DNA from: the human T2T-CHM13v2.0 reference genome, Homo sapiens | Assembly: GCF_009914755.1 (NCBI RefSeq) | Contig: NC_060947.1 | Strand: one strand, 5' to 3' | DNA: 64,000 bases | Shown: piece after piece, positions 12,636-45,869 of the stretch | How positions within the stretch are numbered: position 1 is the first letter of the stretch | Layout: each line of letters begins with the position of its first letter | Made by a program: the position numbers and the translations under genes | Notes under the pieces: generated by a model | Told to the model about the DNA's origin: nothing | What the model saw: the letters and a program-made list of their open reading frames with translations, nothing else | The model's database searches: none

Positions 12636-13635
12636 GGCTCAAGGGCCATTGCCCTGTCCCTGCCCTAACAGAGCTTGCTGTCATCCTGGGAGGATCTTAG
12701 AGAGATCAGGGCTGTAGATGGAAAGCCCAGAGAGGAAAGGGGACTTGTTGGAGGTACTAGGGATGGGGGTAGGGGAAACTTCTTAGACAAATTGACTTAT
12801 GAGCTCCCTGATGAACACAGTGGGCCTTAATTACATACTCTTTTTAAAACTATTATTATAAATATTTTTAATATCAATGGGTAAAATATATTTCTGCTTC
12901 TTTGGTCTTTTAGAAAAAAACATACATAGAAGTGTAGAAGTGGTTTTTTTGTTTAAATTTCTTTTTTAAAAATTTTTTTATAGAGACGGGGGTCTCACTA
13001 TGTATCCCAGATTGTTCCAGAACTCCTGGCCTCAAGTGATCCTTCCACCTCCTGCCTCAGCCTCTCAAAAAGTGTTGGGATTACAGGCATGAGCCACTGG
13101 GACTGGCTCACTGAAATTTTTCTTTCTTTCTCTCTCTCTCTCTCTCTTTTTAAAGACAAGATCTCGCTCTGTGGCCCAGGTAGGCAGCAGTAGCCAGATC
13201 ATGGCTCACTGCAACCTCGTACTCCTGGGCTCAAGCTATCCTCCTACCTCAGCCTCCTGAGTAACGGACTACAGGCACACCACCCCACCTCGCTAATTTT
13301 ATTTATTTTATTTTTTTGTAGAGAAAAGAGACAGGGTATTGCTGTGTTGCCCAGGCTGGGGTGCAGTGGCATGATCGTGGCTCACTGCAACCTCTGAGTC
13401 CCAGGTTCAAGAGATCCTCCAGCTGTGGCCTCCCAAAGTGCTGGGATTACAAGCGTGAGCCACCGCTCAGGCCCAAATTTCTTACGTCACTACAGAGTTC
13501 CTAGGAAAAATTCCATACCTGAAAAAGTTAGGAACTGACAGGAAGGATTTGAGATGATGACCTGCTTCATATACACTCCTTATTAAAACTGAACAACAAT
13601 CCACCACTGGGGGGGTAAGGGAGATAGGAAAAATG

Positions 13636-13940
13636 GAAAGAGAAAATCAGCGCATGCGTACTCTGATTTTGGAAGAATCTAAAGAGAAAATCAGAGCATG
13701 CGTACTCTGAACTTGGAGTAGCCAATCCCAGGGGATGCTTTAGGCGGGAAAATCAGAGTCTCTGCCTCCATTTTGAGAAGGTTCTGTCCCTGGAGCCTGG
13801 ACTGATAGACCCCACATCAGCTTGGCTTTTCCCACCTACTGTTCTGACTTCTGATTGGCCAGATGGAGTTCACTAACTGCCCTGATTGGTCCATCATCCT
13901 GGAGCAGTGACATTGCAGGATATTTTCTCCTCCTCCAGCC
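13636..13940. promoter_or_regulatory. SSX8P promoter cassette: NRF1-like gcgcatgcg (13650), CCAAT 13722, E2F-type ggcgggaaaa 13743, two inverted CCAAT boxes at 13854 and 13885
   Basis: Motifs read directly, immediately upstream of the SSX1-type first exon and conserved in the SSX7 copy. Factor binding is inferred. Confidence 0.7.
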
Positions 13941-14159
13941 ACACTTTGTCACCAACTGCTGCCAACTCGCCACCACTGCTGCCGACCTCGCCACCACTGC
14001 TTTGTCTCTGAAGTAGGTTCTCTTTAAGGGACACCCTAGATGGGCTAATCGGGGCAGATAGAAAAGGAGGAAGCTTCTGTAGGGCCGTCAAGTGCTTGGG
14101 GTTCCGAAAATCTTGAGGACTGAAAGACAACTAATGCCTTTCAGGACGATCATCATGGA

Positions 14160-15172
14160 GGATTCTCCCGCCTTGGCCTTGGGTGTACAGGCCTGTATCA
14201 TCCCACCCCTGGTATTTTTGGGGGGGGGTATTTTAGTAGAGACAGGGATTCGTTATGTTGGCCAGGCTGGCCTCAACCGCCTGGGCTCAAGCAATCCTCC
14301 CGCCTTGGCCTCGGGACTGCAGGCACGCACCACCCCACCCTCACTAGTATTTTTTTATTTATTTATTTATTTTAGTACAGATGGTTTCGCTATGTTGGCC
14401 AGGCTGACCTCGACCGCCTGGGCTTAAGCAATCCTTCCGCCTCGGCCCCAGGACTACAGAAGTGCACCATCCTGCCCACGCTTTTCTTTTTTTTTTTTTT
14501 TTAGTAGAAACCGTGTTTCACTATGTTGGCCAGGCTGGCCTCAACCTCCTGGGCTCAAGCGATCCTCGTACCTTGGCCTCAGGACTACAGATGTGTGCCA
14601 TTCTGCCCCTGCTAGTTTTGTTGTTGTTCTTTTTACTAGAGACAGGGTTTCGCTATGTTGGCCGGACTGGGCTTGACCTCCTCAGCTCAAGTGATCCTCC
14701 CACCTCAGCCTCGGAACTACAGGCAAGAACCACCTCGCTGATGTTATTTTTTTGTTGTTATTACTAGTAGTAGAAATGGGGTTTTGCTATGTTGGCCAGG
14801 CTGGCCTCGACCTTCTGGGCTCAAGAGATCCTCTTGCCTCGGCCTCCGGACTACAGGCGAGCACCACCCCGCCCCCACTAATACTTTTTATTTTATTTTA
14901 TTTTATTTTTTTTAGTAGAGGGTTTCGCTAGGTTGGCTAGGCTGGTACCGACCTCGTGGGCTCAAGCAATCCGCCCCCCTTGACCAAAGTGCTGAGATGC
15001 TACAGGCCTGTGCCACTGCCCCCAGCTAAATTTTGTGATTTTTTTTTTTTTTTTGTAGAAATGAGGGGTTTGCTATGTTTCCCAGGCTGGTCTCATCCTC
15101 CTGGGCTCAAGAGATCTGCATGCCTCGGCCTCCCAAAATGCTGGGATTACAGGCATGAGCCACTGTGCCTAG
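14160..15172 (-). repeat. Tandem array of ~8 Alu-left-monomer (FLAM-like) units, ~130 bp period, in SSX8P intron 1
   Basis: Repeated T-rich linker + tagtagagac..gctatgttggccaggctggcctc..cctgggctcaagc.atcctcccgcct.ggcctc.ggactacagg. Confidence 0.85.
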
Positions 15173-17546
15173 CTGATTGCTGCAAATTGAAACACCCCAC
15201 ATTTTCTGTAAGTGATGGCAGGCTCATCTAGTCTCAGAGATTCTAGCTCTCTTCCTTCTAATAATTTACAAATCACCGAGTAATAGCCTCTAAATCTGTT
15301 CATATTAGTGAAGGTCATTTCTCTTCAACAGAACAGAACCCCTCAACCCTCTGCCTGATCAGATCCATCACCAGAGAGACCAGGTTATGTCTGGGACTCA
15401 CTTCCCTCCCTTTATTTATTGAGTGGGGGTGTCAGAACGCCCCCACTGAATAGTTACACAGTCACGTCCCTGCCTCCCCAACAAGGGTCTGTACATCTTT
15501 CAGGGTAAGCCTAGCCCCAGGGAAACTACTAACAACACTAGCCAACCCCCTCCCAAAGACTCAAGGCTGCTAGGAAACCTGTCATCCCCAAGCAATACTT
15601 CTCCCAGAGACTCCAGGCTCCCTGTTTTCGTCTGACTTCTCCCCATGTCCTTACTCAGGGACAGATAAGCCCCGAATGCAGACATGCAACCCCTAATTCC
15701 AGGTGACTGAGTGTGGCCGGGCTTCACTGATTTCTCCCTCCATAGGACCAAGGGTCCTGTAGCTAGAAAGTCTCAGGCTGTTTCTCTCGCAGGTGAGAGT
15801 GCTCCTGGTGCCATGAACGGAGACGACGCCTTTGCAAAGAGACCCAGGGATGATGATAAAGCATCAGAGAAGAGAAGCAAGGTGAGGTGACCTGGAGGGG
15901 GCAGAGCAGTGGTCCAGGGGACAGAGTAGGGTGACCAGGTTTCTGAGGAGGGGAGGACAGAGGTACTGGGGACAAGGAGCAGGGTCTCCGGGGAGATCTG
16001 GACCCTTGGGAGCCTCCCACCCTCGCTCTGTCATCACCTAGCATCCCTGGAGACAAGTCTGTGACCTTGCACTATATTTGGTAACTCTCAGTGCATTCTG
16101 GAAGGTGGGAAGAGAGCCAGACAGCAGCATTAAAGCCCTAATGTGTGCCACGGGAGAAGCTAGGGTAGGTCCCCCATGGTCTCTCAGTTAGCCATGGCAT
16201 CAACCAGGACGGATTATCATCCTCACTTCCCAGATCCAGCACACAGGAAGCGGCTCCAGCTGAATGGCAGACATACCTAGCTGAGTCGCCGCCAAAATTT
16301 CTTTTTTTTTTTTTAGGCCTTCAATGATATTGCCACATACTTCTCTAAGAAAGAGTGGGAAAAGATGAAATACTCGGAGAAAATCAGCTATGTGTATATG
16401 AAGAGAAACTATGAGGCCATGACTAAACTAGGTAACAGAAAGTTCTAGGAACAGACAAGTCTGGGGATACATGAGCATCCCTTTTCCTGCTTTGGCTACT
16501 TCTTAGGCTGCAGAAAGTACCCCACATTTTCCTTTTGTGCAGGGAAAAATCACAAGGCAGCTTCTGGGTGTTCTGCTCTTCTGTATCCTGTCAGAGCTGA
16601 GGGCAGGGACTGGCCATAGTGGAGCTTGTACCTGGACCCTGCACTTTTCTCTCCCTTAGGCATCTGTTCTGATGAGCCCAACGGTCTCTGTGGCATTGCA
16701 GCACACCTCCCACCCTACCTTCCTTCTCTCGGCTTGTCTTTTTCTCTCTCTCTCCCTTTTTTTTTTTTTTTTTTTTTTTTGAGTCAGAGTCTCACTCTGT
16801 CACCTAGGCTAGAGTGTAGTAGTGCAATCATAGCTCAATGCAGCCTCGAACTCCTGGGCTCAAGCAATCCTTCTGCCCAGCCAATGGAATAGCTGAGGCT
16901 ACAGGCACATGCCACCATGCCCAACTAATTTTATTTTATATTTTGTAGATATGGGGGTCTCTCTATGTTACACAGTCTCATCTTGAACTCCTGGCCTCAA
17001 ACAATCCTCCTGCCTCAGCCTCCCAAAGTGCTGGTACGACAGACATGAGCCACCGTGCCAGGCCTAAGTTTGTCCCTTAAGGAATAAACATTTTGCTTCT
17101 TTCTAGGTTTCAATGTCACCCTCCCACCTTTCATGTGTAATAAACAGGCCACAGACTTCCAGGGGAATTATTTTGATAATGACCGTAACCGCAGGATTCA
17201 GGGTGAGTAGATGGGAAGTGGCTGGAAAGGTCTCCTGAAACCCAGTTGCTTTTCAGCTCAGCTACCTGGGAAAGATCCTCTGACATTTGTTCTCTCATAC
17301 ACATCAGGGTTGAGTGAAAAAAAAATTGCATACAGAAAGTTAACTACAGAGGCTATTCATAAAATTCTAAAACATGCAAAACAGTAATATGTATTTTCAT
17401 GGATAATAAGTAAATGGTAAATGCATGAAAACATGAATGCGAATAAAAAGGCATCAAATTGAGGAGACTGGCTGTAAATGGAGAAGGGCCGGGGGCAGGG
17501 ATTGGTGAGTGCTGCACAGACAGCTTCAGTCATGACTTGTTGATAG

Positions 17547-17705
<159 letters not shown>

Positions 17706-20700
17706 TAGATAGGATTACAGGCACCCGCCACCATGTACACCTAATTTTTGTATTTTTAGTAGAAACGGGGTTTCACCATGTTGGCCAGGCTGGTCTCAAA
17801 CTCCTGACCTCAGGTGATCCACCCACCTCAGCCTCCAAAGTGCTGGGATTACAGGTGTGAGCTACTGCACCCAGGCCGTTTCTAGTGTTTCTAACATTCT
17901 AAATAAATAAATCAGATCTAACATAGTCATGGGGTAATGTTGAGATGCGACTGAACTCGATATTATTCCCCATACTTTTCTGTGTGTTTCAAACATTTCT
18001 TTTTTAAACGACATGTTGTTCTTGCTACACACTGTTAATGAATGAAAGGACAGTTAAGACAATTTTAAAAGTGAAAAAAAGGAAAATGTTAAAAGTGTAG
18101 ATCAGCCAAAAACTTCCAGAGATTGTTTCATTAACAGCATGTAGATATTGGATAAATATCTTAAGAGAGAGGGTGATGAACACATTAGGTAATAAAGATC
18201 GCTGTTTCTCTGTACTTTATTAAAACCAAATAGTCTTCTCATTCCCAAACAACCCCAATTCTCCATGATGAGCTTGGAAGTGAGTTTGAAAGAGTGCTCC
18301 CTCATCTAACACACAGAGAGCTTTCCCAATTGTCAGTGAGCAGAGATAACATAGGATGAAAAAAAGACAGGTTCTTCGGTAGAGATCTTTGTGCATTTCA
18401 GGAATATAAAGGGGACATATGTGTTTACCTGCTCTTCTGCTCTGACAATACAATCATAAGACAAGGTCGGAGTGTCTAAACTGTCCTCAATATACCTATT
18501 ACTCCCCAACTAAACAGGCCAGAATCAACCATCTCCCGCAATCACTATAAGAGACCTGAAAAGCCAGTGCTTGAGTGTCTGCCAAGTTTTGACATTAAAG
18601 GAGTGTCTTTTTACTGAAAATATTTCAGAGCCACTGGACTAAATTATCCACGGTTCATCACACATTTAACAGCTTAATTCACATACCATAAGATCCACCC
18701 ATTTGAAGTGTACAGTGATTTTTAGTTGTTCACATCTTGAGTGGATACAGTTCAGATTCCCAACCAATGAATTTAATTATTTGGGAAAAAGTAAAAGATA
18801 TGTAATGGAATAAGATGAGACTGTGATGGGATTTAACCCCCATTTGACAAACCATGAGATGTAAAATTCTGAATTGATGCCACAGATAAATGCACCAACC
18901 ATTACTAAACATAATTCAGAAGCAAATCTCAAATAACTCCTCAACAATGAGTGGACTCATACCCCTTTGCTGCAGAATGCCCTCATGCGACAGAAGTCTC
19001 TCTAGAGTTTGGAAATCTTTACCAACAAAGAAAAATTCTGATGTATTCTCTTCCAGTTGAACGTCCTCAGATGACTTTTGGCAGGCTCCAGAGAATCATC
19101 CCGAAGGTGAGTACCTCTCAAATCTAAAGGACCAGAGAACCTTTTTCCCTTCATGGATGTGAACACTGATAAGAGTGGGAGAATATCAAAAATGCCCTCA
19201 TTGCCTCTTTCTCCCCATGTCTATCACAACAACTTATGTAGCACCGACGGCTTGATAATACTAACAGTTGTGATCCTTAATACTTCTTTTGTTTTCATAG
19301 TGATGCCAGATACTATTTTAAGGAGTTCACATGGATTAATTAATTTAATCCATAAGAAGACCTCTATGATGTTGTTTCTTTTATTATCTCCAAATAGTAA
19401 TGAGTCACACACTTCGGTTGTCATCCATATAAAAGCCATGTGACTTGGCACAAATCTTCTAAGTTATTGGAGCTCCAGATTCCTAGTCCATGAAGTGGAA
19501 GTAAAGAATAATAGTTCATGTTATAGACCATAATTATCAGCAATATAACAATAAAATGAGGCTATCATGGTACAGAGATGTTAAAGAATTTTCCTGGGGC
19601 GCAGTGGCAGTGGTAGTCTAATCCAGAGCTTCAAGCCATTTAAAGCTCATTCACGTTTGTATTTGTTTATGAAGTTCAGATGTTGCTCACTAGGGCTTCA
19701 CCCCATAGGGCCTGATGGTGCTTCCATTGAGACACCCACTCTCTCAACAGGAAGGACCAGCTGGCCTCTCTTCTGTTACCGGGGCCACTCCCATGGCTTA
19801 GGAATCGCTTTGACTGTTGGCCCCTCCTTGAGCTCCTTAAGGGTTTTGTCTGCACCTGGGGCATCCGAGAAGCCCCAGTCCCAGCCCAGGGGATCCCTCA
19901 GAGGCCCCTGAATGAGTGATTCTGGAAGTGCAGATTCAGCTCTGGTTTAGAAGGTAAAGGGATCTGGGAGTTGGGTTGCCAGTATGGAGAACGAATTCAA
20001 AGAAGGATCCAGAAAGGTATTCATTGTTATTATTATTACATTTGAACAACGTTTACAAGCTCAGAGAGGACTTTCCCTTAGTCTATTTTACATGTATTAT
20101 TCACTATTTCATAAGTGAGGAAGTTGAGTAAAAAGTAGTTTAAGGGCCGGGCGCGGTGGCTCATGACTGTAATCCCAGCAATTTAGGAGGTCAAGGCGGG
20201 CAGATCACGAGGTCAAGAGATCGAGACCGTCCTGGCCAACATGGTGAAACCTCGTCTCTACTAAAAATACAAAATTTAGTGGGGCCTGGTAGCACCTGCC
20301 TGTAGTCCCAGCTACTTGGGAGGCTGAGGCAGGGGAATCACTTGAACCGGGGAGGAGGGGAGGAGGAGATTGCAGTGAGCCGATATCGCGCCACTGCACT
20401 CTAGCCTGGTGACAGAGCGAGACTTTGTCAAAAAAAAAAAAAAGTAGCTTAATATTGTTGGTCAGTGACATATCTCAATGCAACCAGAATTGGTATGGGC
20501 ACCACCTCACTGAATTCCACATTCAATGTTGGTGCCTCGGTAGGGTGGTATGCCATATCTGTTACTGCTTTCTTTGCTGCCTAGATAAATTTCAGCAAAC
20601 CATTTCTTTCCCTCTCCCTTCCCTGTATTCATCTCCCCACACCATCTTTCCCAGCAGTGTTTTGTCCCCTCTCTATGTTTTTACATTTACTCTCTGAGCA

Positions 20701-21611
20701 GCTGTCTACAAGCTTATATGGGATCCCTTGTATTTTATAGAAGTTCTTCCTTTTTTAGACGTTGTGAATTCTTAGAATGCTGTTTTTCTCCAAATCTTCT
20801 GTGTACCGCACTCTCAATCACATGGAGATTTCTGCTGTTTGCACGAATGTCAGTCTTAAAAAAGTGTGAAGATAAGCATTCTAATCCTGGAAACCCCATT
20901 CATTTAGGCCATTCCTTTTGCTTCTAATCTCCCAGGTTTCTCTTATTTAGGCAAGTGTAACTCTCCCAGCATTGTTGAGAACATTGATTAAGGTAATGCA
21001 TGTGAAGATGCTTTGTAAGCTCTAAAGCACTATAGAAATGTCACTGATTCTGTTTATCTGTGACCTTCACATTATAAAGATCATGCCCAAGAAGCCAGCA
21101 GAGGAAGGAAATGATTCGAAGGGAGTGTCAGAAGCATGTGGCCCACAGAACGATGGGAAACAGCTGCGCCGCCCCGGGAAAAGCAAATACTTCTGAGAAG
21201 ATTAATAAGAGATCTGGTAAGAGGAATCAATTTGGGAACAACTCCTCTGGCTTTTCTGGCTATGTTCAGGTGTGTGGACTGGGTGTGTGGCATGGATCCC
21301 AGACAAGTCTGGGTCCAGGCTGGGCTGAGGAGCTCGCCCAGCTCCAGATGAGATGTTAGACATGACTTCCAGAGACACAGACTGGAGTTGTCACCCATAT
21401 AAAAAACCACGTGACTTGGGGCAAGTCTTTCAAATTTTCTCAGCTCCAGACTCCTAGTCCATAAGATGGAAATAAAGAATCATAGTTCATAAATTGTTTG
21501 GAGACATTAAATTTAATCTAGAAGGCCTGATGACATGAAAGGTGCTCAAGCGATTCTATCAGTGATAACCTGGGATCATATCTTACTCAGCTCAATGCCT
21601 GATACCCAATG

Positions 21612-23297
21612 CAGGTGTACTTCAGAGATATTGCAGATTCGGTTCCAGACCACTGCAATAAAGTGAGTCACACACATTGTTTTTCGATTGTTTTGCAGTG
21701 CATAAAAACATTATGTTTACACTATAGTGTACTCTACTAAGTGTGCAATAGCATTATGTCTAAAAATGTACATACCTTAATTTTAAAATAATTCATTGTT
21801 AAAAAATGCTAACAATCTTCTGAGCCTTCAGTGAGTCACACTCTTCTTGTTGGTGTGGGGTCTTGCCTCAGTGTTGATGGCTGCTGGCTGATCAAGGTGG
21901 TGGTTGCTGAAGGGTGAAGTGGCTGTGGCAGTTCCTTAAAAGAACACAACAGTGAAATTTGCCACATGGATTAGCTCTCCCTTTCATGAAAGATTTCTCT
22001 GTAGTATGTGATGCTATTCGATAGCATTTAGCCACTTTAGAACTTCTTTCAAAGTTGAAGTGAATCCTCTCTAGCTGTGAAAGTTTTAGATGACATCTAC
22101 TTCCAATAAAAGGCTATTTTATCTTTATTGAAAATCTGTTGTTTAGTGTAGCCACCTTCATCAGTGATCTTAGCTAGATCTTCTGGATAACTTGCTGCAG
22201 CTTCTCCAACAGGGTTTGCTGCTACACCTTGCACTTTTATGTTATGAAGATGACTTCCTTCCTTAAACCTCATGAGCCAACCTCTGCTAGCTTCACACGT
22301 TTCTTCTGCAGTTTCCTCACCTCTCTCAGCTTTCATGGACTTGAAGAGAGTTCGGGTCTTGCTCTGAATTAGACTTTGGCTTAAAGGAATGTTGTGGCTG
22401 GTTTCATGTTCTATCCTGATCACTCAAACTTTCTCTATTTCAACAGTAAGACTGTTTTGCTTTCTTATTCGTGTGTTCACTGGGTATTAGTATTATTATT
22501 TCCTTGAAGAACTTTTCCTTTGCATTATATACTATTCTTTCCTTCAAGAACTTTTCTTTGCATGCACAGCTTGGCTATTTGGTGCAAGAGGCCTAGCTTT
22601 CAGCCTATCTTGGCTTTCAGCATGCCCTCCTCACTAAGCTTAGCCATTTCTAGATTCTGATTTAGTGTGAGAGAATGCAAGTCTTCCTTTCATTTGAACT
22701 GTTAGCGGCCATTGTAGGATTGCTAATTGTCCTAATTTCAGTATTGCTGTGTCTCAGGGAATAGGTAGGCCCAAGAAAAGGAAAAGAGTTGGGAAGCGCT
22801 CATCGGTGGAGCAGTCAGAACACACACAACATTGATCAATTACGTTCGTCATCTTCTCTGGGTGGAGTTCCTGTTACGCCCAAAACATTTACAAACAACA
22901 GGGTGACTATAGTCAATAATACCTTAGTCATACATTTAAAAATAACTAAAAGAGTGTAATTGGATTGTTTGTAACACAAGGATAAATGCTTGACCGGATG
23001 GATACCCTATTTTCCATGATGTGATTATTACGCATTGCATACATGTATCAAAACATCTCACATACCCCATAAGTATGTACACCTACTGTATATCCACAAA
23101 AATAAAAAAAATTATTTTAAAGACTAAAAAACAACAAAAACAATTGCAATAATAACATCAAAGCTCACTGATCACAGATCACCATAACAGATACACTAAT
23201 AACAGAAAAGTGTAACATTGGTGAGAATTCCCCTCAAAAAATTACAGTATCTGCAAAGCACTATAAAAATGAGGTGCCATAAAACAAGGTATGCCTC
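21612..23297 (-). mobile_element. Tigger1 DNA transposon (internally deleted) in SSX8P intron 6, containing an L1 3' fragment (~22896-23110)
   Basis: Both terminal inverted repeats are recognisable. ORF 22097..22423(-) gives CENP-B-type transposase sequence (SRGWLMRFK...[21 protein letters not shown]). Confidence 0.9.
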
Positions 23298-24574
23298 TGT
23301 GCCCTTAACAAATATGTGCAGCATGAAAGGAGGTATGGGTGAATGTTCCTGTAAATGAAGACGTTGGGAATCTAAACCTGACAACGGAAGGAGCCAGAAG
23401 CTAAAACTTTAATTGGTATTTGTCGTGTATTGGTGTGGATCTAAGGTCTCAGCCTCTTTAAGCCAGAGAATGTGAAAAACTGGATAAAGAAGGCCCATGG
23501 GCACTTGGGAGGGGGGAGGCATCTCCTTTTTTTGAGAAAACAGAGCCTAACATTCTTCAACCTACCCAGTCCTCATCTTCCAACTCTTCTTCATCATAGG
23601 ACCCAAAAGGGGGAGACATGCCTGGACCCACAGACTGCGTGAGAGAAACCAGCTGGTGATTTATGAAGAGATCAGAGACCCTGAGGAAGATGATGAGTAA
23701 CTCCGTAAGTGAACCTTTGGCTCATCCCCCACATCCCTGCAGATGTGCTATTCTGTTATGGTACTGGTATCCCATCTTGTCATTTGTTTCCCAAATCATT
23801 CCTTTCTCATAATTTTCTAGTGTACAGCATTGAGGCTGAATGATGAGATTTCCCATGCTCTTTCTACTCCCTGCCCTGTATATCCAGGGATCCTCCCTAC
23901 CCAGGATGCTGTGGCTTCCCAAACCCCAGGTCAGCCCTGATATGTGGCCACACCTTCCTCTAGCCTAGGAATGGATAACCCAGGCGAGGAAGTCACTGTG
24001 GCATGAGCAGATGGTTCACTTCGAGGAACCATGGAAGGCGTGTCCAGGTCCTGAGGTAGGGCAGAATCAGAGTGTGCAGGGTCTGCAGGTCTGGAGAAGT
24101 TGAGATTGAGTTATTGGGCAGTGGGAACTCGCTGTCACTTACTTTCCTTCTCTCTTCTCGCCTCAGCCTGGGGGATATGACACATGCCCATGATGAGAAG
24201 CAGAACATGGTGACCTTTCACGAACATGGGCATGGCTGCGGACCCTCGTCATCAGGTGCATAGCAAGTGAAAGCAAGTGTTCACAACAGTGAAAAGTTGA
24301 GCGTCATTTTTCTTAGTGTGCCAAGAGTTCGATGTTAGTGTTTCCATTGTATTTTCTTACACTGTGCCATTCTGTTAGATACTATCCTTTTCAATGATGA
24401 GCAAGACATACTTAATGCATATTTCGGTTTGTGTATCCATGCACCTACGTCAGAAAACAAGTATTGTCATGTATTCTCTGCATAGAACAGCACTATCCTC
24501 ATCTCTCCCCAGATGTGACTACTGAGGGCAGTCCTGAGTGTTTAATTTCAGACTTCTTCCTCTGCATTTACACA

Positions 24575-24605
24575 CCACACAACACACACACACACACACA
24601 CACAC
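24575..24605 (+). repeat. (CA)n in the SSX8P 3'UTR; homolog at 35018-35062 in the SSX7 3'UTR
   Basis: Read directly. Confidence 0.9.
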
Positions 24606-26662
24606 CAAGTACCATTATAAGCATCTCCCATCTGCTTTTCCCATTGCCGTGCATCCTGGTCAAGCCCCCCTCACTCTGTTTCCTGTTCAGCATGTACTCC
24701 CCTCATCCGATTCCCCTCTATCAGTCACTGACAGTTAACAAACCTTTGCAAACATTCCCCAGTTGTTTGTTCCTCTCATTATTGTACACACAGCTCTGTG
24801 CACATGTGTGAATATTTCTTTAGAAAGATTCTTAGAAGTGGAATTGATGTGTCAAAGGAGTCATTTATTCAACAAAACCCTAATGAGTGTGTCCTCGGGC
24901 TGAGCGCTATTCTAGGTGCTGGAGAGACATCAGGGAACAGGGCAGACAGATGTTTCTGACCACCATTCTAGAGGAGGATGTTTCCAGTTGTTCGTTTTCT
25001 TGATTTGTTTGTTTGTTTCTTCTAGAGATGGGGTCTTGCTCTGTCCAGGCTGGAGTGCAGTGGCATGATTATAGTTCAATGCAGCCTTGAACACCTGGGC
25101 TCAAGCAATCCTCCCACCTTGGCCTCCTGAAGTACTAGGATTACAGGCATGAGCCACCGCACCTGGCCTCCAGTTTTTATTTTGATAGAGACTATACACT
25201 TCAGTCCTGGAGCAGGATTCTGTAGCAGGTGGTTGGGCAATTTGGCCTTCGCTCTCTGAACAATTTTCGGGTTCTAGGGCTGTGATGGTCCATTTGGGAG
25301 TATGTGGGAGGAGACACAGATGAAATCGTCATCTGGGGAACGTGGAGGAATGAGGAAGATGCATGCACTGTAGACCCTGTGATGGCCAGGGAATAGAAGA
25401 GTCCACTTAGTCTCCATGCAGGGGATCAGCAGTGGGAAAGTCCCCTGGACAGAAGCATGAGACTGCCCATCAAGGGTCTCACCAACCAAGGTCCTGGGGG
25501 CTGGGGTGGAGATGATGATTTGGGAATGGGACAGTTCTTTCTCACAGGTACCATTGCAAGGTGCAGAGAGGAAACAGTTGTGGGGAAGGGAAGGGCAGAG
25601 GGGAGTCTATTTTAGAACGAACCATTGTGTGTCAATGGAGACATTAAGGTTCCATTTACACACAGCGGACTTGAAACACCAGCCCCAGGTGGAGGCAGGA
25701 TTGGAGCTGTTTTGACCATCCGTAACCCATCACCTTGGCCTCCTGGTTCTCCCCAGCCTTAGAAGGAGGACACTATCATCATTATGCCTATGTAATAGAT
25801 GAGAGACAGAGTCCCAGAGAGATGGTAGGTGTCTTGTCACAGGTCCTACAGCTGGCAGGTGCAGGAGGGGCTGAGTTTGGAGTTCACTGACTCTAGAAAC
25901 ATTAAGGAGGACAAGCGTGTGTGGTGGAGGGAGGGAGAAGTGAACAAGCCCCGGGTTCTGTCCCCAGTCACAAGGTAGATATTGTGGGTTCATTTACCCA
26001 AGACAAGGAGCCCTAGGACAGAGAGAGTGCGGGGAGGGAGAGGCAATCACGGATATAGTGGGGACAGTGGGAGACAGAGATATTCAGGGTGGGCAGAAGA
26101 GGGGCAGGCAAAGAAGCAGGGGATACCCAAGACCAAGTGTGGGCTGTCACAGCCACCAGAGGGAGAGGATGCCAGGAAGGAGGTTGTGGGGCTCCAGGAG
26201 CAACAGAGGTTCCCCAGATCTCTGAGCATGCCCTGCCTGGCACTGCAGGAAGAGGTGGCTGCCACCCAGGTCAGTGTGGACGTGCCTCTACCTGTGTCTC
26301 AGAGGAAACACATTCTGTTTTATCCCAATATCATTCTGTATTACACAAATGTAACATTCAGCTACTAGATATTGGGTGCCTTATCCTCCATGCAAGTAGA
26401 GGAGAGGATACCCTAAAAGAGATACTAAAGGATTTGATTTTTCTTTCTCCCTGGGATGATGGGATCCGTAAGTTGGGTCCCCCAGCCCACAAGACAGGTG
26501 CAAGGAAGGGTGGCTGGAAGATTGTGAGTCATGACAGGGAACATTTTTCGTTAGGTTCCATGGGTATATAAAGCTCCCGACTATCTGTCTATCATGAATA
26601 GATAAAGAGTGAACATGGTCCCCTCTCCACAAATGTGTTTCTCTCCTTCATTATTACAGTGA

Positions 26663-26908
<246 letters not shown>

Positions 26909-26971
26909 TGATCTTCTGACCTCGTGATGTGATGGCCTCAGCATCCCAAAGTGCTGGGATTACATGCGTGA

Positions 26972-27394
<423 letters not shown>

Positions 27395-28313
27395 TGATTC
27401 AGACGTTTCAAATGAACTTTTAAATTAACCTACCTGATGATTATCCTAAGGCCCTTTCTTGCTCCATGTTTTTTTGATTCTGGGTTTGGAGTTTTTCAGA
27501 AGCTTTCCTACAAAGAGCATCTCCTGGTCGGGCACAGTGACTCATGCTCTAGTGCCAGCACTTTGGGAGGCCAAGACAGGCAGATCACTTGAGGTCAGGA
27601 GTTCGAGACCAGCCTGGCCTACATTGCAAAAACTCTGCCTCTACTAAAAATACAAAAATTAGCCAGCTGTGGTGGTGGGCACTGGTGACTTCCAGTTCTT
27701 GCGGGGGCTGAGGCACGAGAATCACTTGGACCCGGGAGACACACCGTGCAGTGAGCTGAGATCACGCCACTGCACTCCAGCGTGGGCGACAGAGTAAGTC
27801 TCTGTCTCAAAAAACAAACAGCATCTCTCGCCTACACTCATTTGAGCTGTGGTCTTGTCTCCTCGGGTTTCTCTGTCAGTCTGATCCCATCTACTCTATC
27901 TACCAGGAATGCCTCAATATTTCTGGTGGACCACTGACACGTCTTCCTATTTTCCTCTACTGTCAAGGATTGACTCTTGAAAACATTTTCTTCCTACTTT
28001 GATGGAATGTTGAGTGGGGCACGGGATCTAGCTGCCATCTTGTTCCAATCACCTGTTATTAGATATTTCATGTATTTTTGTCACAATATAAGTGTAATTT
28101 TTCTCAATTTGGTTTTCTAAATGGCTATTATTAGCATGTAGAAACCCTATCTATTATTGTTAATAATATTTTGTTACCTGTCTGGGTACAGCTTCCCATG
28201 CATTTTGGCACAAGACTCAATCTATTTTATTCTTCAAAACAAAACTGACAGGCTGAGTGTGGTGGCTCACACCTGTAATCCCAGCACGTAGGGAGGCCGA
28301 GGCATGTGGATCA

Positions 28314-28583
<270 letters not shown>

Positions 28584-29141
28584 TCACTTCACCGGCAATA
28601 GATAGTTATAAAAGGATAATTTATGGAAGATTTCATAGGGGAGACTGATGGAAAGAAAGGAAGTATACATTTTACAGAGCTGAGCAGAACTCACTGCAAA
28701 AATCACCAGAACTGCCTTTTTCTCCAAAAGTGCTACCCATAAGCTATTCTACTACTGGTTCTTCTAGTCCTTTTCTCTATTCCAAATCCTCAAATTGTCC
28801 ATTTCCTTATTGGGGTAATTTTCCTCTGCCCAGATCTGGGTCCCCCACCACACTTAACACTGTCTGTGAGGGTGTGAATTCCCATTATTTTAGCTCAGGT
28901 TCCCAAGGAAACAGGCTTTGGGCCATACAGGACACATCTAGACAGACTATACTGAGAAGCCATGCTTGGAACGGTGCATGGGGAGAGGAGAGGGAATTTA
29001 TGTACCTGGCTCTCACTCATGGTTTTTTTTTTTTTTAATTGGTCAAAATTTACCACATAGGCATGAACTCCCCCACACTTCTAGATTGCATCATCTGCCC
29101 CTTTCACAGCTATCTGGGAAGCCAGATCCCACACTTTGAAG

Positions 29142-30442
<1,301 letters not shown>

Positions 30443-31013
30443 TGATCTGCCTGCCTTGGCCTCCCACAGTGCTGGGATTACAGGCGTGAGCCACCACGCC
30501 TGGCCTCTGCTAACACTTTTGGATTGTATGAAACACTACACTTCAAAGTGTGGGATCTGGCTTCCTAGACAGCTGTCAAAGGGGCAGTTGATGCAATCTA
30601 GAAGTGTAGGGGAGTTCGCACCTGTGGGGTAAATTTTGACCAATAAGAAAAGGAACCAGGAGTGAGAGTCAGGTACGTAATTCCCTCTCCTCTCCTCTCC
30701 TCTCCCCATGCACCATTCCAGGCATTGTTTCTCAGTATAGTCTGTCTAGAGGTGTCCTGTATGGCCCAAAGCCTGTTTCCTTGGGAATCTGAGCTAAAGC
30801 AATGGGCATTCAAACACTCGAAGACAGTGTTAAGTGTTGTGGAGGACCCAGATCTGGGCAGAGGAAAATTATCCCAATAAGAAAATGGACAATTTGAGGA
30901 TGTGGAATAGAGGGAAGGACTAGAAGAACCAGTAGTAGTATAGCTTAGGGGTACTATTTTTGGAGAAAAAGGCAGTTCTGGTGATTGTTCCAGTGAATTG
31001 CTCAGCTCTGTTT

Positions 31014-31126
31014 TATATATATAAATATACATAAAGGATATATATATATAAATATATATGTGTGTGTATATATATGTGTGTATATATATGTGTATATATA
31101 TGTGTGTATATATATGTGTATATATA

Positions 31127-31166
<40 letters not shown>
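31014..31166. repeat. Compound (TA)n/(TG)n microsatellite, present only in the SSX7 arm
   Basis: Read directly. The homologous site at ~28660-28675 has only gtatacatttta. Confidence 0.95.
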
Positions 31167-31223
31167 CATCATTCTTTCCATCATTCTCCCCTATGAAATC
31201 GTCCATAAAGTATCCTTTTATAA

Positions 31224-31436
<213 letters not shown>

Positions 31437-31904
31437 TAGTACAGAAGGGGGTTCACCAGCTTGGCCAGGCTGGTCTCGAACTCAATTGATCCACCAGCAT
31501 CAGTCTCCCAAAGTGCTGGGATAAGAGGCGTGAGCCACCGCACCCAGCCTGTCACTTTCTTTTTGGAGAATAAAACATATTGAGTCTTGTGCCAAAATGC
31601 AGGGGAAGCTGCACCCAGAAAGGTAACAAAATATTATATATATAGATAGATAGGTTTTCTACATACCAATATTAACCATTTAGAAAACCAAATTGAGAAA
31701 AAATACACTTATATAGTGACAAATATACATAAAATATCTAAAACCAGATGATTGGAGCAAGATGGCAGATAGATCCCATGCCCCACTCAACATTCCATTG
31801 AACTGGGAAGAAAATGTTTTCAAGGGTCAATTCTCAAGAGTAGAGGAAAATAAGAAAACGTGTCAGTGGTCCACCAGAAATATTAAGGCATTCCTGGGAG
31901 ATAG

Positions 31905-32195
<291 letters not shown>

Positions 32196-32608
32196 TGACC
32201 TCAACTGATCTGCCTGCCTCGGCCTCCCAAAGTGCTGATATTACCCAGCGTGGGACGCCGCCCAGGTGATGATCTTTGTAACAAAGCCTCTGAAAAACTC
32301 CAAACCCTGAATCAAAAAAACACAGAGCCGGAAAGGGCCTTAGGATAATCATCAGGTAGGTTAATTTAAAAGTTCATTAGAAACATCTGAATCAGCCAGA
32401 TTCCCCTCCAACACCACACTCAGATTGGCTGGCAGTAGCCACTTTTGCCTCTAAGATGAAACTCTGATAATTGTTCATTAAAGAAAGTGAAGGCCTGGCG
32501 AGGTGGCTCACACTTGTCATCCCAGCACTTTGGGAGGCTGAGGCAGGAGGATTGCCTGAGGCCAGGGGATCCAGACCAGCCTGGGCAACAAAGTGGATGC
32601 CGTCTCTA

Positions 32609-32770
<162 letters not shown>

Positions 32771-32773
32771 TCA

Positions 32774-32809
<36 letters not shown>

Positions 32810-35793
32810 TAACATATCAGAACTTGGTGTAACTTCAGCCCTTCACAAGGAGAGAAACACATTTGTGGAGAAGGGACCATGTTCACTCTTTATCTATCCA
32901 TGATAGACAGATAGTCCGGAGCTTTATATACCCATGGAACCTATGGAAAAATGTTGCCTGTCATAACTCACAATCTTCCAGCCACCCTTCCTTGTATCTG
33001 TCTTGTGGGCTGGGGGAACCAACTTATGGATCCCATCATCCCAGGGAGAAAGAAAAATCAAATCCTTCATTATCTCTTTTGGGGTATGCTCTCCTCTATT
33101 TGCATGGAGGTTAAGGCACTCAATATCTAGTAGCCGAATGTTACATTTGTGTAATACAGAACTATATTGGTATAAAATCGAATTTGTTTCCTCTGAGACA
33201 CAGGTAGAGGTACGTCCACACTGACCTGGGTGGCAGCCATCTCTTCCTGCAGTGCCAGGCAGGGCATGCTCACAGATCTGGGGAACCTCTTGCTCCTTGA
33301 GCCCCACAACCTCCTTCCTGGCACCCTCTCCCTCTGGTGGCTGTGACAGCCCACACTTGGCCTTGGGTCTCCCCTGCTTCTTTGCCTGCCCCTCTTCTGC
33401 CCACCCTGCATATCTCTGTCTCCCACTGTCCCTGCTGTGACCACGACTGCCTCTCCCTCCCCGCACTCTCTCTCTCCTAGGGCTCCTTGTCTTCGGTAAA
33501 TGAACCCACAGCCTTTACATTGTGACTGGGGACAGAGCCCGGGGCTTGTTCAGTTCTCCCTCCTTCCATCACACACCTGTCCTCCTTAATGTTTCTGAAG
33601 TCAGTGAGATCCAAACTCAGCCCCTCCTGCACCTGCCAGCTGTAGGACCTGTGACAAGACGCCTGCCATCTGTCTGGGTCTCCGTCTCTCATCTGTCACA
33701 TAGGCATAATGATGATAGTGTCCTCCTTCTCAGGCTGGAGAGAACCAGGAGGCCAAGGTGATGGGCCACGAACGGGCAAAACAGCTCCAATCCTGCCTCC
33801 ACCTGGGGCTGGTGTTTCAAGTCCATTGTGTGTGAATGGAGCTTTGATGTCTCCATTGACACAGAATAGTTTGTTCTAAAATAGACTCCCCTCTGCCCTT
33901 CCTTCCCCACAACTCTTTCACCTCTGCACTGTGCAGTGGTATATGTGAGAAAGAACAGTCCCATTCCCAAATCATCATCCCCACCCCAACTCCCAGGCCC
34001 TTGATTGGTGAGACCCTTGATGGGCGTTCTCATGCTTCTGTCCAGGGGACTTTCCCACCAATTGCTCCCCTGCATGGAGACTAAGTGGACTCTTCTATTC
34101 CCTGTCCATCACAGGATCTACAGTGCACGCATCTGCCTGATTCCTCCACATTCCCCAGATGACGATTTCATCTGTGTCTCCTCCCACATCCACCCAAATG
34201 GACCGTCCCAGACCTTGAAACCGAAAATCATTCAGAGAGCGAAGGCCAAGATGCCCAACCACCTGCTGCAGAATCCTGCTCCAGGACTGAAGTGTATAGT
34301 GTATATCAAAATAAAAACTGGAGGCCAGGTGCTGGGGCTCACACCTGTAATCCCAACACTTTAGGAGACCAAGGTGGGAGGATCGCTTTGGCACAGGAAT
34401 TTAAGAACAGCCTGGGTAACATAGACAGACTTTCTTGACAAAATCTTAAAAAAATTAGTGGGTCATGATGGTGCATGCCTGTAGTCACAGCTTCTCTGCA
34501 GGCTAAGGTGGGAGGATCACTTGAGCCCACGAGTTCAAGGCTGCATTGAACTATGATCATGCCACTGCACTCTAGCCTGGGCAGTGCAAGACCCCTTCTC
34601 TAGAAAAAAGAAACAAACAAAGAAACCCAACAACTGGAAACATCCTCCTCTGGAATGGTGGTCAGGAACATCTGCCTGCCTTGTTCACTGATGTCTCTCC
34701 AGCACCTAGAACAACGCCCAGCACGAGAACACACTCATTAGTGTTTTGTTGAATAAATGACTCCTTTGACACAGCAATTCAACTTCTAAGAATCTTTCCT
34801 AAAGAAATATTCACACAGGTGCAGAGACCTGTGCGCACATTAATGAGAGGAGCAAACAACTGGGGAACGTTTGCAAAGGTGTATTAACTGTCAGTGACTG
34901 ATACGGGGAATCAGAGGAGGGGAGTACATGCTGAACAGGAAACAAATTGAAGGGGGGCTTGACCAGGACTCATGGCAATGGGGAAAAGCATATGGGAGAT
35001 GCTTATACTGGTACTTGGTGTGTCTGTGTGTGTGTGTGTGTCTGTGTGTGTGTGTTTGTGTGTCTGGTGTGTAAATGCAGAGGGGAAAATCGGAAATTAA
35101 ACACTCAGATCTGCCCTCAGTAGTCACATCTGGGGAGAGAGGAGGGTAGTGCTGTTCTATGGAGAGAATACCTGACTATACTTGCTTTCTGAGGTAGGTG
35201 CATGGATACACAAACCGAAATACACATTAAGCATGTCTTGCTCATCAATGAAAACGCTAATATCTAACAGAATGGCACACTGTAAGAAAATACAATGGAA
35301 ACACTAACATCGAACTCTTGTCACACTAAGAAAAACGACGCTCAACTTTTCACTGTTGTGAACACTTGCTTTCACTTGCTATGCACCTGATGACGAGGGG
35401 TCCGCAGCCATGCCCATGTTCGTGAAAGGTCACCACGTTCTGCTTCTCATCATGGGCATATGTCGTATCCCCGAGGCTGAGGCAAGAAGAGAGAAGGAAA
35501 GTAAGTGGCAGTGAGTTCCCACCACGTGACAACTCAATCTCAACTCCTCCTGACCTGCAGACCCTGCACACTCTGATTCTGCCCTACCCCAGGACCTGCA
35601 CACGCCTTCCATGGTTCCTTGAAGTGAACCATCCGCTCATGCCACAGTGACTTCTTCGCCTGGGTTATCCATTCCTAGGCTAGAGGAAGGTGTGGCCCAC
35701 ATACAGGGCTGATCTGGAGTTCGGGAACCCACAGCATCCTGGGTAGGGAGCATTCCTGGATATACAGGGCAGGGAGTAAAAAGAGCTTACGAA

Positions 35794-36090
<297 letters not shown>

Positions 36091-36248
36091 CGTGGGAAAT
36101 CTCTCATCATTCGGCCTCAATGCTGTACCCTAGAAAATTATGAGACGGGAATGATTTGGGGAGCAAGTGACAGATGGGATACCAGTATCATAACAGAATA
36201 CCACATCTGCAGGGATGTGGGGGATGAGCCGAAGGTTCACTTACGGAG

Positions 36249-36349
36249 TTACTCGTCGTCTTCTTCAGGGTCGCTGATCTCTTCATAAATCACCAGCTGC
36301 TTTCTCTCACGCAGTCTGTGGGTCCAGGCATGTTTCCCCCTTTTGGGTC
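36249..36349 (-). CDS. SSX7: SSX7 last coding exon, SSX repression domain (SSXRD): [33 protein letters not shown]
   Basis: TAA at 36251-36249, followed by ctcc|gtaagt donor 4 nt after the stop. Confidence 0.95.
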
Positions 36350-36653
36350 CTGTGATGGAGAATAGTTGGAAAGTGAGGGTTGGGTAGGTTGGAGAGTGTT
36401 AGGCTCTGTTTTCTCAAAAAAAGGAGATGCCTCCCCCCTCCCAAGTGCCCATGGGCCTTCTTTATCCAGTTTTTCACATTCTCTGGCTTAGAGAGGCTGA
36501 GACCTTAGACCCACACCAATACAGGCCAAATGCCAATTAAAGTTTTAGCTTCTGGCTCCTTCTGTTGTGGGGTTTAGATTCCCAACCTTTTCACTTACGG
36601 GAACATCCACCCTTACCTCCTTTCATTCAGCACGTGTTTTTATTGAGGGCACC

Positions 36654-38670
<2,017 letters not shown>

Positions 38671-42517: not shown

Positions 42518-42679
<162 letters not shown>

Positions 42680-44912: not shown

Positions 44913-45038
<126 letters not shown>

Positions 45039-45866: not shown

Positions 45867-45869
45867 GAC

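What the first reader, a model, noticed from the sequence alone, without database searches (positions are those of the whole stretch)
13330..14020. SSX8P and SSX7 appear to use opposite strands of the same promoter cassette (promoter flip)
Seen in the sequence: 13330-13960 and 45195-45866 are homologous in the SAME (+) orientation, yet SSX8P runs + and SSX7 runs -, and their gene bodies are an inverted repeat. The cassette is therefore inverted relative to the gene in one paralog. SSX8P has a candidate exon 1 at the right end (cactttgtcacc...tctctgaa|gtaggt, 14012). SSX7 has an unrelated one at the left end on the other strand (...aaaatcaga|gtaagc, 45527). From memory these match the different 5'UTRs of SSX1-type and SSX2-type mRNAs. 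Inference: the promoter is intrinsically bidirectional (NRF1-like, E2F, CCAAT boxes on both strands), and a local inversion was tolerated because the divergent TSS was spliced onto exon 2, splitting the family into two 5' architectures. I cannot tell whether this has been described before.
Basis: partly seen in the sequence, partly recalled or inferred. Interest (0 to 1): 0.8.

Follow-up and report, generated by a model that had tools for sequence, protein, structure and literature searches.

The report
SSX promoter block flipped between paralogs
The same ~660-base promoter block sits in opposite orientation relative to the gene in two branches of the human SSX cancer-testis family (SSX1/SSX6P/SSX8P versus SSX2, SSX4, SSX7 and others), so each branch reads its first exon from a different strand of that block, which makes a natural test of whether a promoter works both ways.

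Summary
Window 13297-13959 and 45172-45866 are homologous on the same strand (80.7% over 709 bases). The SSX8P and SSX7 bodies are the arms of a 14.4-kb tail-to-tail palindrome.

In the whole genome the block has 13 copies, all at SSX loci. It lies sense to the gene at 3 of 13 (SSX8P, SSX1, SSX6P) and antisense at 10 of 13. The three sense loci form one clade in both the cassette tree and the gene-body tree (100/99), so the arrangement arose once.

Each class has its own exon 1 on opposite strands, spliced to the shared exon 2. The best-conserved part of the block is a pair of CCAAT boxes. An old chr6 retrocopy carries the SSX1/8-type exon 1.

It is not a simple in-place inversion, because both flanks differ. 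The antisense class abuts a processed OAT retrocopy. The sense class has about 190 bases found nowhere else, followed by an Alu-monomer array.

Which state is ancestral stays unresolved. True bidirectional firing is inferred, not shown. I found no description in print. Interest is moderate.

The parts
13297..13477 (.). Alu-b: an internally deleted antisense Alu fused to the left end of the cassette (SSX8P copy)
   Evidence: It aligns to 45172-45345 in all 13 copies. It is a right-monomer/left-monomer fusion when compared with an Alu majority consensus built from 33 window Alus.
13478..13959 (+). Non-Alu promoter cassette, SSX8P copy, sense to the gene
   Evidence: 81.0% over 525 columns to 45346-45866. 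There are 13 genomic copies.
13854..13889 (.). Pair of inverted CCAAT boxes (ATTGG at 13854 and 13885), the best-conserved stretch of the cassette
   Evidence: Mean pairwise identity is 0.95-0.97 for windows covering 13834-13893 in 11 distinct copies. Box 1 is present in 13 of 13 copies and box 2 in 12 of 13.
13749..14012 (+). SSX8P exon 1 (RefSeq NR_027250.2, hub table); donor GTAGGT follows 14012
   Evidence: The donor is kept in 3 of 3 sense-class loci. About 60 nt of its 3' end are spliced to exon 2 in the chr6 retrocopy.
13950..14001 (+). 21-base tandem repeat (2.5 copies) that makes up the 3' part of SSX8P exon 1
   Evidence: TRF. The SSX6P copy is shorter here.
13960..14150 (+). X: sequence found only in the sense class (end of exon 1, the donor, start of intron 1)
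   Evidence: The genome search with 13950-14235 finds only the 3 sense-class loci, 3 of 3 candidates. It has no significant similarity to candidate SSX7-locus regions.
14229..15132 (.). Tandem array of an Alu-derived unit of about 132-137 bases (5.6-6.6 copies) in SSX8P intron 1, running into Alu-a
   Evidence: TRF.
15031..29465 (+). Left palindrome arm: SSX8P from intron 1 (Alu-a) through its 3' flank
15793..15881 (+). SSX8P exon 2, the shared acceptor exon that holds the ATG
   Evidence: Hub table; acceptor checked.
30216..45064 (-). Right palindrome arm: SSX7 with its 3' flank, ending in Alu-a
44927..45171 (.). Alu-a: a sense Alu truncated at its 3' end, abutting the poly-T of Alu-b at SSX7
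   Evidence: Read from the sequence. Repeat-type hits appear.
45172..45345 (.). Alu-b, SSX7 copy
45346..45866 (+). Non-Alu promoter cassette, SSX7 copy. It has the same chromosomal orientation as at SSX8P and is antisense to SSX7.
45494..45619 (.). 44-base tandem repeat (2.9 copies) that carries the minus-strand donors of the antisense-class exon 1
   Evidence: TRF. The third copy is present in 7 of 13 loci.
45571..45709 (-). SSX7 exon 1 (RefSeq NM_173358.2, hub table); donor GTACGC. An alternative GTAAGC donor lies at 45527.
45762..45797 (.). The same pair of CCAAT boxes, 53 and 84 bases upstream of the SSX7 start on the minus strand
45867..45875 (.). 9-base junction filler. Eight of its bases are the reverse complement of 45850-45857.
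   Evidence: Read from the sequences.
45876..48716 (+). Processed OAT retrocopy (LOC791097): the last 22 nt of OAT exon 1 joined directly to exon 2, later exons juxtaposed, poly-A at about 48705. It is interrupted by Alus.

Best explanation
A block of about 660 bases lies in opposite orientation relative to the gene body in two SSX lineages. The block is an internally deleted Alu fused to about 480-520 bases of unique promoter sequence. In SSX1, SSX6P and SSX8P it is sense to the gene. Transcription runs rightward out of the block through a lineage-specific exon 1, made of a 21-base repeat plus unique sequence with donor GTAGGT, and is spliced to exon 2. In the other ten loci (SSX2, 2B, 4, 4B, 7 and five more) the block is antisense. 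Transcription runs leftward from about 50-90 bases beyond a pair of CCAAT boxes into the 44-base repeats, which supply the donor, and is spliced to the same exon 2.

Shown: the structure, the single origin, the splice sites, and the old age of the sense-type exon 1.

Inferred: one ancient complex rearrangement produced the second arrangement. It would have made an inverted copy of the gene body beside a direct copy of the block, with breakpoints in Alus and at the 5' end of the OAT retrocopy, probably while the tail-to-tail palindrome formed. The new copy survived because the CCAAT-box core can start transcription in either direction. The direction of change is open.
For: 1. Same-strand cassette homology with inverted bodies.
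2. Genome-wide split of 3 of 13 sense and 10 of 13 antisense. Locus names were fixed by exact peptide matches to the review's tables: SSX1, SSX2, SSX4 and SSX6/8.
3. The sense class is one clade in the cassette tree (100/99, one change) and in the body tree (100/99).
4. RefSeq exon 1 lies on opposite strands of the block, with valid donors and a shared acceptor (hub table).
5. The chr6 processed pseudogene has the sense-type exon 1 spliced to exon 2. The SSX8P transcript aligns from position 228 with the exon boundary at 264, whereas the SSX7 transcript aligns only from its exon 2. The retrocopy is 85.9-87.5% identical to the X copies, which are 91.1-96.9% identical to each other on the same columns.
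6. Published SSX2-promoter bisulfite primers map to the gene strand inside the block.
7. Conservation peaks at the two CCAAT boxes. They lie 53 and 84 bases upstream of the SSX7 start, and 65 and 96 bases upstream of the point where the retrocopy's exon-1 homology begins.
8. The strong minus-strand GTAAG donor is present in 9 of 10 antisense loci and 0 of 3 sense loci.
9. Members of both classes are testis-expressed, and some are inducible by demethylation (review tables).
10. NF-Y and NRF-1 motifs are reported as over-represented in human bidirectional promoters (passage in PMC3082894).
Against: 1. No locus shows annotated transcripts in both directions.
2. The RefSeq SSX8P start (13749) lies upstream of the CCAAT pair and beyond the SSX7-start equivalent (about 13800). 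On annotation alone, the two classes could be using neighbouring but different core elements.
3. The block is CpG-poor (observed/expected 0.27 and 0.37), unlike typical bidirectional promoters.
4. The exact NRF1-like word is in 2 of 13 copies.
5. Both flanks differ between the classes, so an inversion as such cannot be demonstrated.
6. The source of the 190-base X is unknown.
7. Rooting with the chr6 retrocopy or with an Alu consensus leaves the deep nodes unresolved. Gene conversion among X copies could distort every tree.
Confidence: 0.72

Rival explanations
1. There are two adjacent one-way promoters, not one two-way core. The sense class starts at about 13749 and is driven by the elements to its left: the plus-strand CCAAT at 13722, the E2F-like word at 13744 and the 44-base repeats. 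The antisense class is driven by the ATTGG pair to the right of its start. The block merely carries both promoters, and each lineage keeps the one that points at its gene.
For: The RefSeq starts (13749 plus; 45709 minus, equivalent to about 13800) overlap by about 52 bases instead of diverging (hub table). The plus-strand CCAAT and the E2F-like word are each kept in 12 of 13 copies. The block is CpG-poor.
Against: The elements needed by each putative promoter are equally conserved in the class that would not use them. The chr6 retrocopy's exon-1 homology begins near 13950, downstream of the ATTGG pair, which fits a start there. A single RefSeq 5' end is weak evidence for the main start site.
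Confidence: 0.25
2. This is the reader's simple local inversion: about 0.7 kb was flipped in place in an otherwise unchanged locus.
For: The shared block is short, is bounded on one side by Alus, and is inverted relative to the body.
Against: After an in-place inversion both outer flanks should still match, and neither does. X (13960-14150) and the flank 9915-13296 occur only at the sense loci, apart from a partial copy of the flank's first part (9259-11309) near locus H, where it is the distal flank of an antisense unit. The OAT retrocopy that abuts all 10 antisense cassettes is absent beside the 3 sense cassettes.
Confidence: 0.08
3. It is an artefact of assembly or annotation.
For: The region is ampliconic and palindromic.
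Against: The sense arrangement recurs at three loci that differ by 5-11%, each with its own diverged flanks. The splice sites are valid. An independent chr6 retrocopy records the sense-type splice.
Confidence: 0.02

Closest known systems
Bidirectional (divergent) promoters built on CCAAT/NF-Y boxes
   Same: Two CCAAT boxes lie between start sites on opposite strands. The motif types are among those reported as enriched in human bidirectional promoters (NRF-1, GABPA, YY1, NFY; passage in PMC3082894). That paper's reference list also names a mouse gene pair driven by an array of CCAAT boxes (title only seen).
   Different: Here the two directions are used in different paralogs, not at one locus. 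The block is not a CpG island. Firing in both directions from one copy has not been shown.
X-linked ampliconic palindromes that carry cancer-testis genes (SSX2/SSX2B, SSX4/SSX4B)
   Same: SSX8P and SSX7 are arms of a tail-to-tail palindrome with a 750-base spacer. The family is described as ampliconic and shaped by duplication (PMC13616518 passages; PMC2963798 passages).
   Different: In SSX2/2B and SSX4/4B each arm carries its cassette in the same relation to its gene. In the SSX8P/SSX7 pair the arms stop in intron 1, and the cassettes outside them are direct repeats.
New first exons arising from divergent transcription or promoter capture after duplication (general idea, recalled from the literature, not from a call)
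   Same: A rearranged gene copy is rescued by transcription from the other strand of an existing promoter, which is spliced into the old exon 2.
   Different: Both derived and ancestral forms persist as multi-member lineages, and the same block can be compared in 13 copies.
OATL (ornithine aminotransferase-like) sequences clustered with SSX at Xp11.2
   Same: The link between SSX and the OATL1 cluster is long known (Chand et al. 1995, as cited in PMC2963798).
   Different: Shown here: the copy is a processed retrocopy whose truncated 5' end is exactly where the homology between the two cassette classes stops.

Membership tests
Bidirectional promoter | Two start sites on opposite strands within 1 kb at the same locus | tested here: not met
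   The hub table lists no antisense partner at SSX8P or SSX7. The OAT pseudogene next to SSX7 is not marked as transcribed. Only annotation was available, not 5'-end data.
Bidirectional promoter | CpG-island context | tested here: not met
   GC 0.47 and 0.46; CpG observed/expected 0.27 and 0.37.
Bidirectional promoter | Motifs typical of the class (NF-Y/CCAAT, NRF-1, E2F) | tested here: inconclusive
   ATTGG box 1 is in 13 of 13 copies, box 2 in 12 of 13, plus-strand CCAAT in 12 of 13, the E2F-like word in 12 of 13, and the exact NRF1-like word in 2 of 13. The consensus words are recalled, and binding was not tested.
Bidirectional promoter | Activity in both orientations | not testable with these tools
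   Indirect only: both classes contain testis-expressed genes (review tables).
Simple in-place inversion | Both outer flanks unchanged between the two states | tested here: not met
Inverted-repeat palindrome (X ampliconic type) | Two long inverted arms around a short spacer, each holding a gene copy | tested here: met
   Arms 15031-29465 and 30216-45064, 84.9-89.5% identical, spacer about 750 bases. This identity is far below the >=97% used for 'ampliconic' in PMC13616518 (abstract).
Processed pseudogene (the OAT copy) | Exons joined without introns | tested here: met
   The end of exon 1 is joined to exon 2. Three later exons are juxtaposed at 47200-47560, whereas they lie 1.1-0.7 kb apart on chr10.
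Processed pseudogene (the OAT copy) | Poly-A tail and target-site duplication | tested here: inconclusive
   A poly-A run is present at about 48705. I saw no duplication by eye between the 5' junction and the sequence after the tail.
SSX 5' cassette | Block present next to an SSX gene body | tested here: met
   13 of 13 block copies lie within about 2.2 kb of an exon-2 match. Three further body matches have no block beside them: SSX11P and two partial matches, one of them the partial SSX copy upstream of SSX1.

The most novel reading that the evidence does not exclude
A core of about 150 bases with two CCAAT boxes is a naturally orientation-independent, methylation-gated germline promoter. When a rearrangement turned it round, divergent transcription gave birth to a new first exon. 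That exon is either the SSX1/6/8 type (built from a 21-base repeat and unique sequence) or the SSX2/4/7 type (built from 44-base repeats whose donor was later sharpened from GTACGC to GTAAGC). This founded a lineage that includes SSX1. The 13 copies would then be a dated natural experiment on how promoter direction and first exons evolve.
Probability: 0.4. Interest if true: 0.65.

Novelty: new variant of a known kind. Interest (0 to 1): 0.5.

Why it matters
If the core really fires both ways, the SSX family gives a rare within-genome comparison: 3 against 10 paralogs in which one promoter drives the same downstream exons from either strand. That bears on how direction is set at promoters and on how new first exons arise after duplication.

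It also has practical weight. SSX1-type and SSX2-type genes have different 5' UTRs and mirror-image promoter layouts. Methylation assays, reporter constructs and paralog-specific probes designed on one class therefore do not transfer to the other. One paper cloned an 'SSX1 promoter' as sequence upstream of the ATG. In the genome the ATG lies in exon 2, and the sequence directly upstream of it is intron 1 with its Alu array.

Tried and rejected
1. The cassette as the OAT promoter carried along with the pseudogene: rejected. Sensitive BLAST and local alignment against 26 kb of the chr10 OAT locus found only exon matches and nothing for the cassette. The OAT copy is processed, so it carries no promoter.

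2. X as diverged OAT exon 2: a MAFFT alignment looked suggestive, but the local score of 22 was reached by 53 of 200 shuffles. Through a slip in that script (a repeated dictionary key), the minus strand of 45867-46250 was not tested.

3. A larger shared block of 'cassette plus repeats': the plus/plus similarity of 14162-15174 to 46248-46894 (69-75%) is probably generic Alu similarity. The first region is a true tandem array and the second is not.

4. Polarity. A tree rooted on the chr6 retrocopy gave a star. The AU test does not reject retrocopy plus sense class as a clade (p 0.419). Rooting on an Alu majority consensus puts the sense clade inside the antisense copies in the best tree, but the deep nodes have 35-58% support.

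Arguments for antisense first: it has the majority of loci; locus H groups with the sense clade (95/94, on a branch of 0.0037); and Alu-a reaches about 30 bases further at SSX7 than at SSX8P (by eye).

Arguments for sense first: X has no source anywhere else; the antisense junction is a 9-base templated filler, typical of a rearrangement; the old retrocopy carries the sense-type exon 1; and the strong antisense donor is a derived base.

5. A target-site duplication for the chr6 retrocopy, to fix its true 5' end: nothing convincing.

6. Closed routes. Earlier findings were not open. Gure et al. 2002 is not held. The only account I saw of its 10-exon scheme, with an extra 5' untranslated exon, is the review's paraphrase.

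7. Print searches. Eight searches found no description of the orientation difference. Subscription papers are not covered.

Full report
**Observation.** A self-comparison of the window shows 13297-13959 and 45172-45866 aligned on the same strand (80.7% over 709 columns, E 0.0). Meanwhile 15031-16500 aligns to 45064-43607 on the opposite strand (86.6%). The left 175-180 bases of the shared block are an Alu. The remaining 480-520 bases are unique and align at 81.0% over 525 columns. On a larger scale, SSX8P and SSX7 are the arms of a tail-to-tail palindrome: 15031-29465 against 45064-30216, in seven collinear blocks of 84.9-89.5%, with a spacer of about 750 bases. The arms stop inside intron 1, in an Alu that I call Alu-a. 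The two promoter blocks lie just outside the arms and are direct repeats.

**Family-wide picture.** The assembly that holds the window could be searched.
- The non-Alu block plus the end of SSX8P exon 1 (13470-14020) has 13 matches, all on the X.
- A probe covering the end of intron 1 through exon 3 has 18 matches: 16 on the X and 2 pieces of one chr6 copy.
- Pairing the two lists, the block is on the same strand as the gene at 3 of 13 loci and on the opposite strand at 10 of 13.
- Only the three same-strand loci match the last 60-70 bases of the probe, which is the 3' part of SSX8P exon 1.
- Three further body matches have no block beside them: SSX11P in this window and two partial matches, one of them the partial SSX copy upstream of SSX1. 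In SSX11P and in the copy upstream of SSX1, the body runs from Alu-a straight into Alu-like sequence inside the OAT pseudogene. That pattern fits an Alu-Alu deletion of the promoter.

**Names.** I translated exons 2-4 of each locus and compared them with peptides printed in a review (PMC2963798, passages and Table 3).
- The locus at C23:47.66 Mb encodes the SSX1 peptide [20 protein letters not shown] exactly.
- The locus at 47.52 Mb and SSX8P are the only 2 of 11 translations with AMTKLGFNV, which the review assigns to SSX6 and SSX8.
- SSX2 (KASEKIFYV) and SSX4 are confirmed in the same way.
- The sense class is therefore SSX1, SSX6P and SSX8P. The antisense class holds SSX2, SSX2B, SSX4, SSX4B, SSX7 and five others.
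- By recalled map distances those five are probably SSX3, SSX5, SSX9P and two pseudogenes. These last names rest on memory, not on a call.

**First exons.**
- According to the hub's RefSeq table, SSX8P exon 1 is 13749-14012 on the plus strand and SSX7 exon 1 is 45571-45709 on the minus strand.
- The donors (GTAGGT after 14012; GTACGC after 45571) and the shared exon-2 acceptor are in place.
RefSeq does not use it for SSX7.
- When the two annotations are mapped onto one alignment, they overlap by about 52 bases on opposite strands: 13749 corresponds to about 45658, and 45709 to about 13800.
- A processed SSX pseudogene on chr6 gives independent evidence. It aligns to the spliced SSX8P transcript from position 228, that is 37 bases before the exon 1/2 boundary, and by local alignment for about 60 bases. 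It aligns to the SSX7 transcript only from the first base of exon 2. An mRNA with the sense-type exon 1 spliced to exon 2 therefore existed when that retrocopy formed.
- On exons 2, 3 and 8 the retrocopy is 85.9-87.5% identical to ten X copies. Those ten are 91.1-96.9% identical to each other, with a mean of 92.3% for sense-antisense pairs. The sense-type exon 1 is thus at least about as old as the deepest split among the present X copies.
- For the antisense class, bisulfite primers published as 'SSX2 promoter' map to the gene strand inside the block, from the second CCAAT box to the 44-base repeats (PMC5341296 passages).

**Anatomy of the block.**
- In an alignment of all 13 copies, the best-conserved stretch is 13834-13893. 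Mean pairwise identity there is 0.95-0.97 among 11 distinct copies, against about 0.85-0.9 elsewhere.
- That stretch holds two inverted CCAAT boxes. Box 1 is present in 13 of 13 copies. Box 2 is present in 12 of 13, and locus H has ATTAG instead.
- The boxes lie 53 and 84 bases upstream of the SSX7 start. They lie 65 and 96 bases upstream of about 13950, where the retrocopy's exon-1 homology begins. That near-symmetry is what a two-way CCAAT promoter would look like.
- A plus-strand CCAAT (12 of 13 copies) and an E2F-like word (12 of 13) lie further left. The exact NRF1-like word is in only 2 of 13.
- The block is CpG-poor.
- The antisense-class donors sit in a 44-base tandem repeat. A third repeat copy, which holds the RefSeq SSX7 donor, is present in 7 of 13 loci.
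- In the first repeat copy, 9 of 10 antisense loci have a base that makes GTAAG on the minus strand. All 3 sense loci and locus H keep the G seen in the other repeat copies. The strong donor therefore looks derived within the antisense class.

**Boundaries: not a simple inversion.**
- To the right of the block in SSX7 comes a 9-base filler, eight bases of which are the reverse complement of the adjacent 45850-45857. After it come the last 22 bases of OAT exon 1 (20 of 22 identical to chr10), joined directly to OAT exon 2. Later exons are juxtaposed and there is a poly-A run.
- The OAT pseudogene is thus a processed retrocopy. The block itself has no detectable similarity to the OAT promoter or exon 1.
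- All 10 antisense loci share this junction.
- In the sense class, homology to the antisense class stops at the same point (13959 / 45866). It is followed by about 190 bases (X) that occur only at the 3 sense loci in the whole genome, and then by a tandem array of Alu-monomer units that merges with Alu-a.
- To the left of the block, the antisense class has Alu-a and the gene. The sense class has another Alu and a 3.4-kb flank.
- The first part of that flank is the distal flank of an ordinary antisense unit. Locus H is collinear with window 1637-11309, and the SSX11P unit (1-9567) is a direct copy of the SSX7 unit. The SSX6P sense unit begins at 9915.
- The sense gene therefore sits just beyond an antisense unit, with the two blocks as direct repeats and the two bodies inverted.
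- This fits a single complex event, such as an inverted copy of the body joined to a direct copy of the block through template switches at Alus. It does not fit a 0.7-kb flip in place. That mechanism is my inference.

**Single origin, open polarity.** The sense class is one clade in the cassette tree (100/99, one change) and in the tree of intron 1 to exon 3 (100/99). Everything else is nearly a star. Rooting attempts with the chr6 retrocopy and with an Alu consensus leave the deep nodes unsupported. The arguments on each side are listed under Tried and rejected. I rate the direction as roughly even.

**How it probably works.** The conserved CCAAT pair, presumably bound by NF-Y (not tested), recruits the transcription machinery without strong directional preference. 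Which direction gives a stable mRNA depends on what lies downstream: a donor that can reach exon 2. After the rearrangement, the copy facing the other way used the opposite start zone and a cryptic donor. Both lineages then persisted as testis-expressed genes, some of them inducible by demethylation (review tables). The main rival reading is that two neighbouring one-way promoters happen to share the block. The RefSeq start at 13749 favours it, and only 5'-end data can exclude it.

**Literature.**
- The review reports, from Gure et al. 2002, extra 5' and 3' untranslated exons and 10 exons of which 8 are used by all members. Different 5' exons may therefore already be in print.
- The SSX-OATL1 linkage is old knowledge.
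- A 2026 study of X ampliconic families treats SSX copy number and selection. The 12 of 16 SSX passages that the look-up showed do not mention promoter layout.
- Eight searches found no account of the orientation difference.
- Gure 2002 is not held, and no supplements were consulted.

**Verdict.** This is a real, cleanly documented structural feature with a plausible but unproven functional reading. It is a new variant of known themes: two-way CCAAT promoters, palindrome-driven duplication, and the birth of new first exons. It is of moderate interest.

Noticed in passing
window 1-9567 against 41697-53797: The SSX11P unit is a direct copy of the SSX7 unit (body, OAT retrocopy, 5 kb of flank; 86-90%), but it lacks the promoter block, the 5' part of the OAT copy and part of the Alu region. 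The body ends in Alu-a and resumes in Alu-like sequence, which looks like an Alu-Alu deletion that killed the gene. The partial SSX copy upstream of SSX1 has the same deletion.
   Followed up: partly
window 45876-48716: LOC791097 is a processed OAT retrocopy (exons joined, poly-A at about 48705) interrupted by Alus. A sense Alu at 48727-49044 has a clear 12-base target duplication. I saw no target duplication for the retrocopy itself.
   Followed up: partly
window 14229-15132: A tandem array of an Alu-monomer unit of 132-137 bases (5.6-6.6 copies) lies in SSX8P intron 1. Arrays at the same place in the SSX1 and SSX6P loci give the same staggered self-matches.
   Followed up: partly
L030 (C6:119772500-119776499) 1611-2852: The chr6 processed SSX pseudogene (probably the psi-SSX10 of the review) has a short A-run at its 3' end. 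A second 116-base piece at 3329-3444 matches transcript positions 1118-1233 at 91%. Its true 5' end could not be fixed.
   Followed up: partly
L016 (C23:47560000-47569999), locus H: This antisense-class locus has no usable ATG reading frame in exons 2-4 (stops in the translation). Its second CCAAT box is mutated to ATTAG, it has a GC-rich insertion of about 29 bases in the block, and it lacks the strong donor. It is probably a dead copy. In the cassette tree it sits next to the sense clade.
   Followed up: partly
L017 (C23:47685000-47694999), locus D: This antisense-class locus has an open frame through exon 4, but no exon-8 match on its strand downstream in the genome search. It lies tail-to-tail with SSX1 and seems truncated at its 3' end.
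   Followed up: no
window 51997-53797 against 61679-59867, and 7137-9567 against 63479-59570: Further inverted repeats of 1-2 kb (86-89%) lie in the flank between SSX7 and SSX15P. They show that the region is built from nested direct and inverted duplications.
   Followed up: no
PMC3018173: [quoted passage not shown] In the genome the SSX1 ATG is in exon 2, so contiguous genomic sequence upstream of it would be intron 1 with the Alu array, not the block described here. Which fragment was really used could not be told from the passages seen.
   Followed up: no
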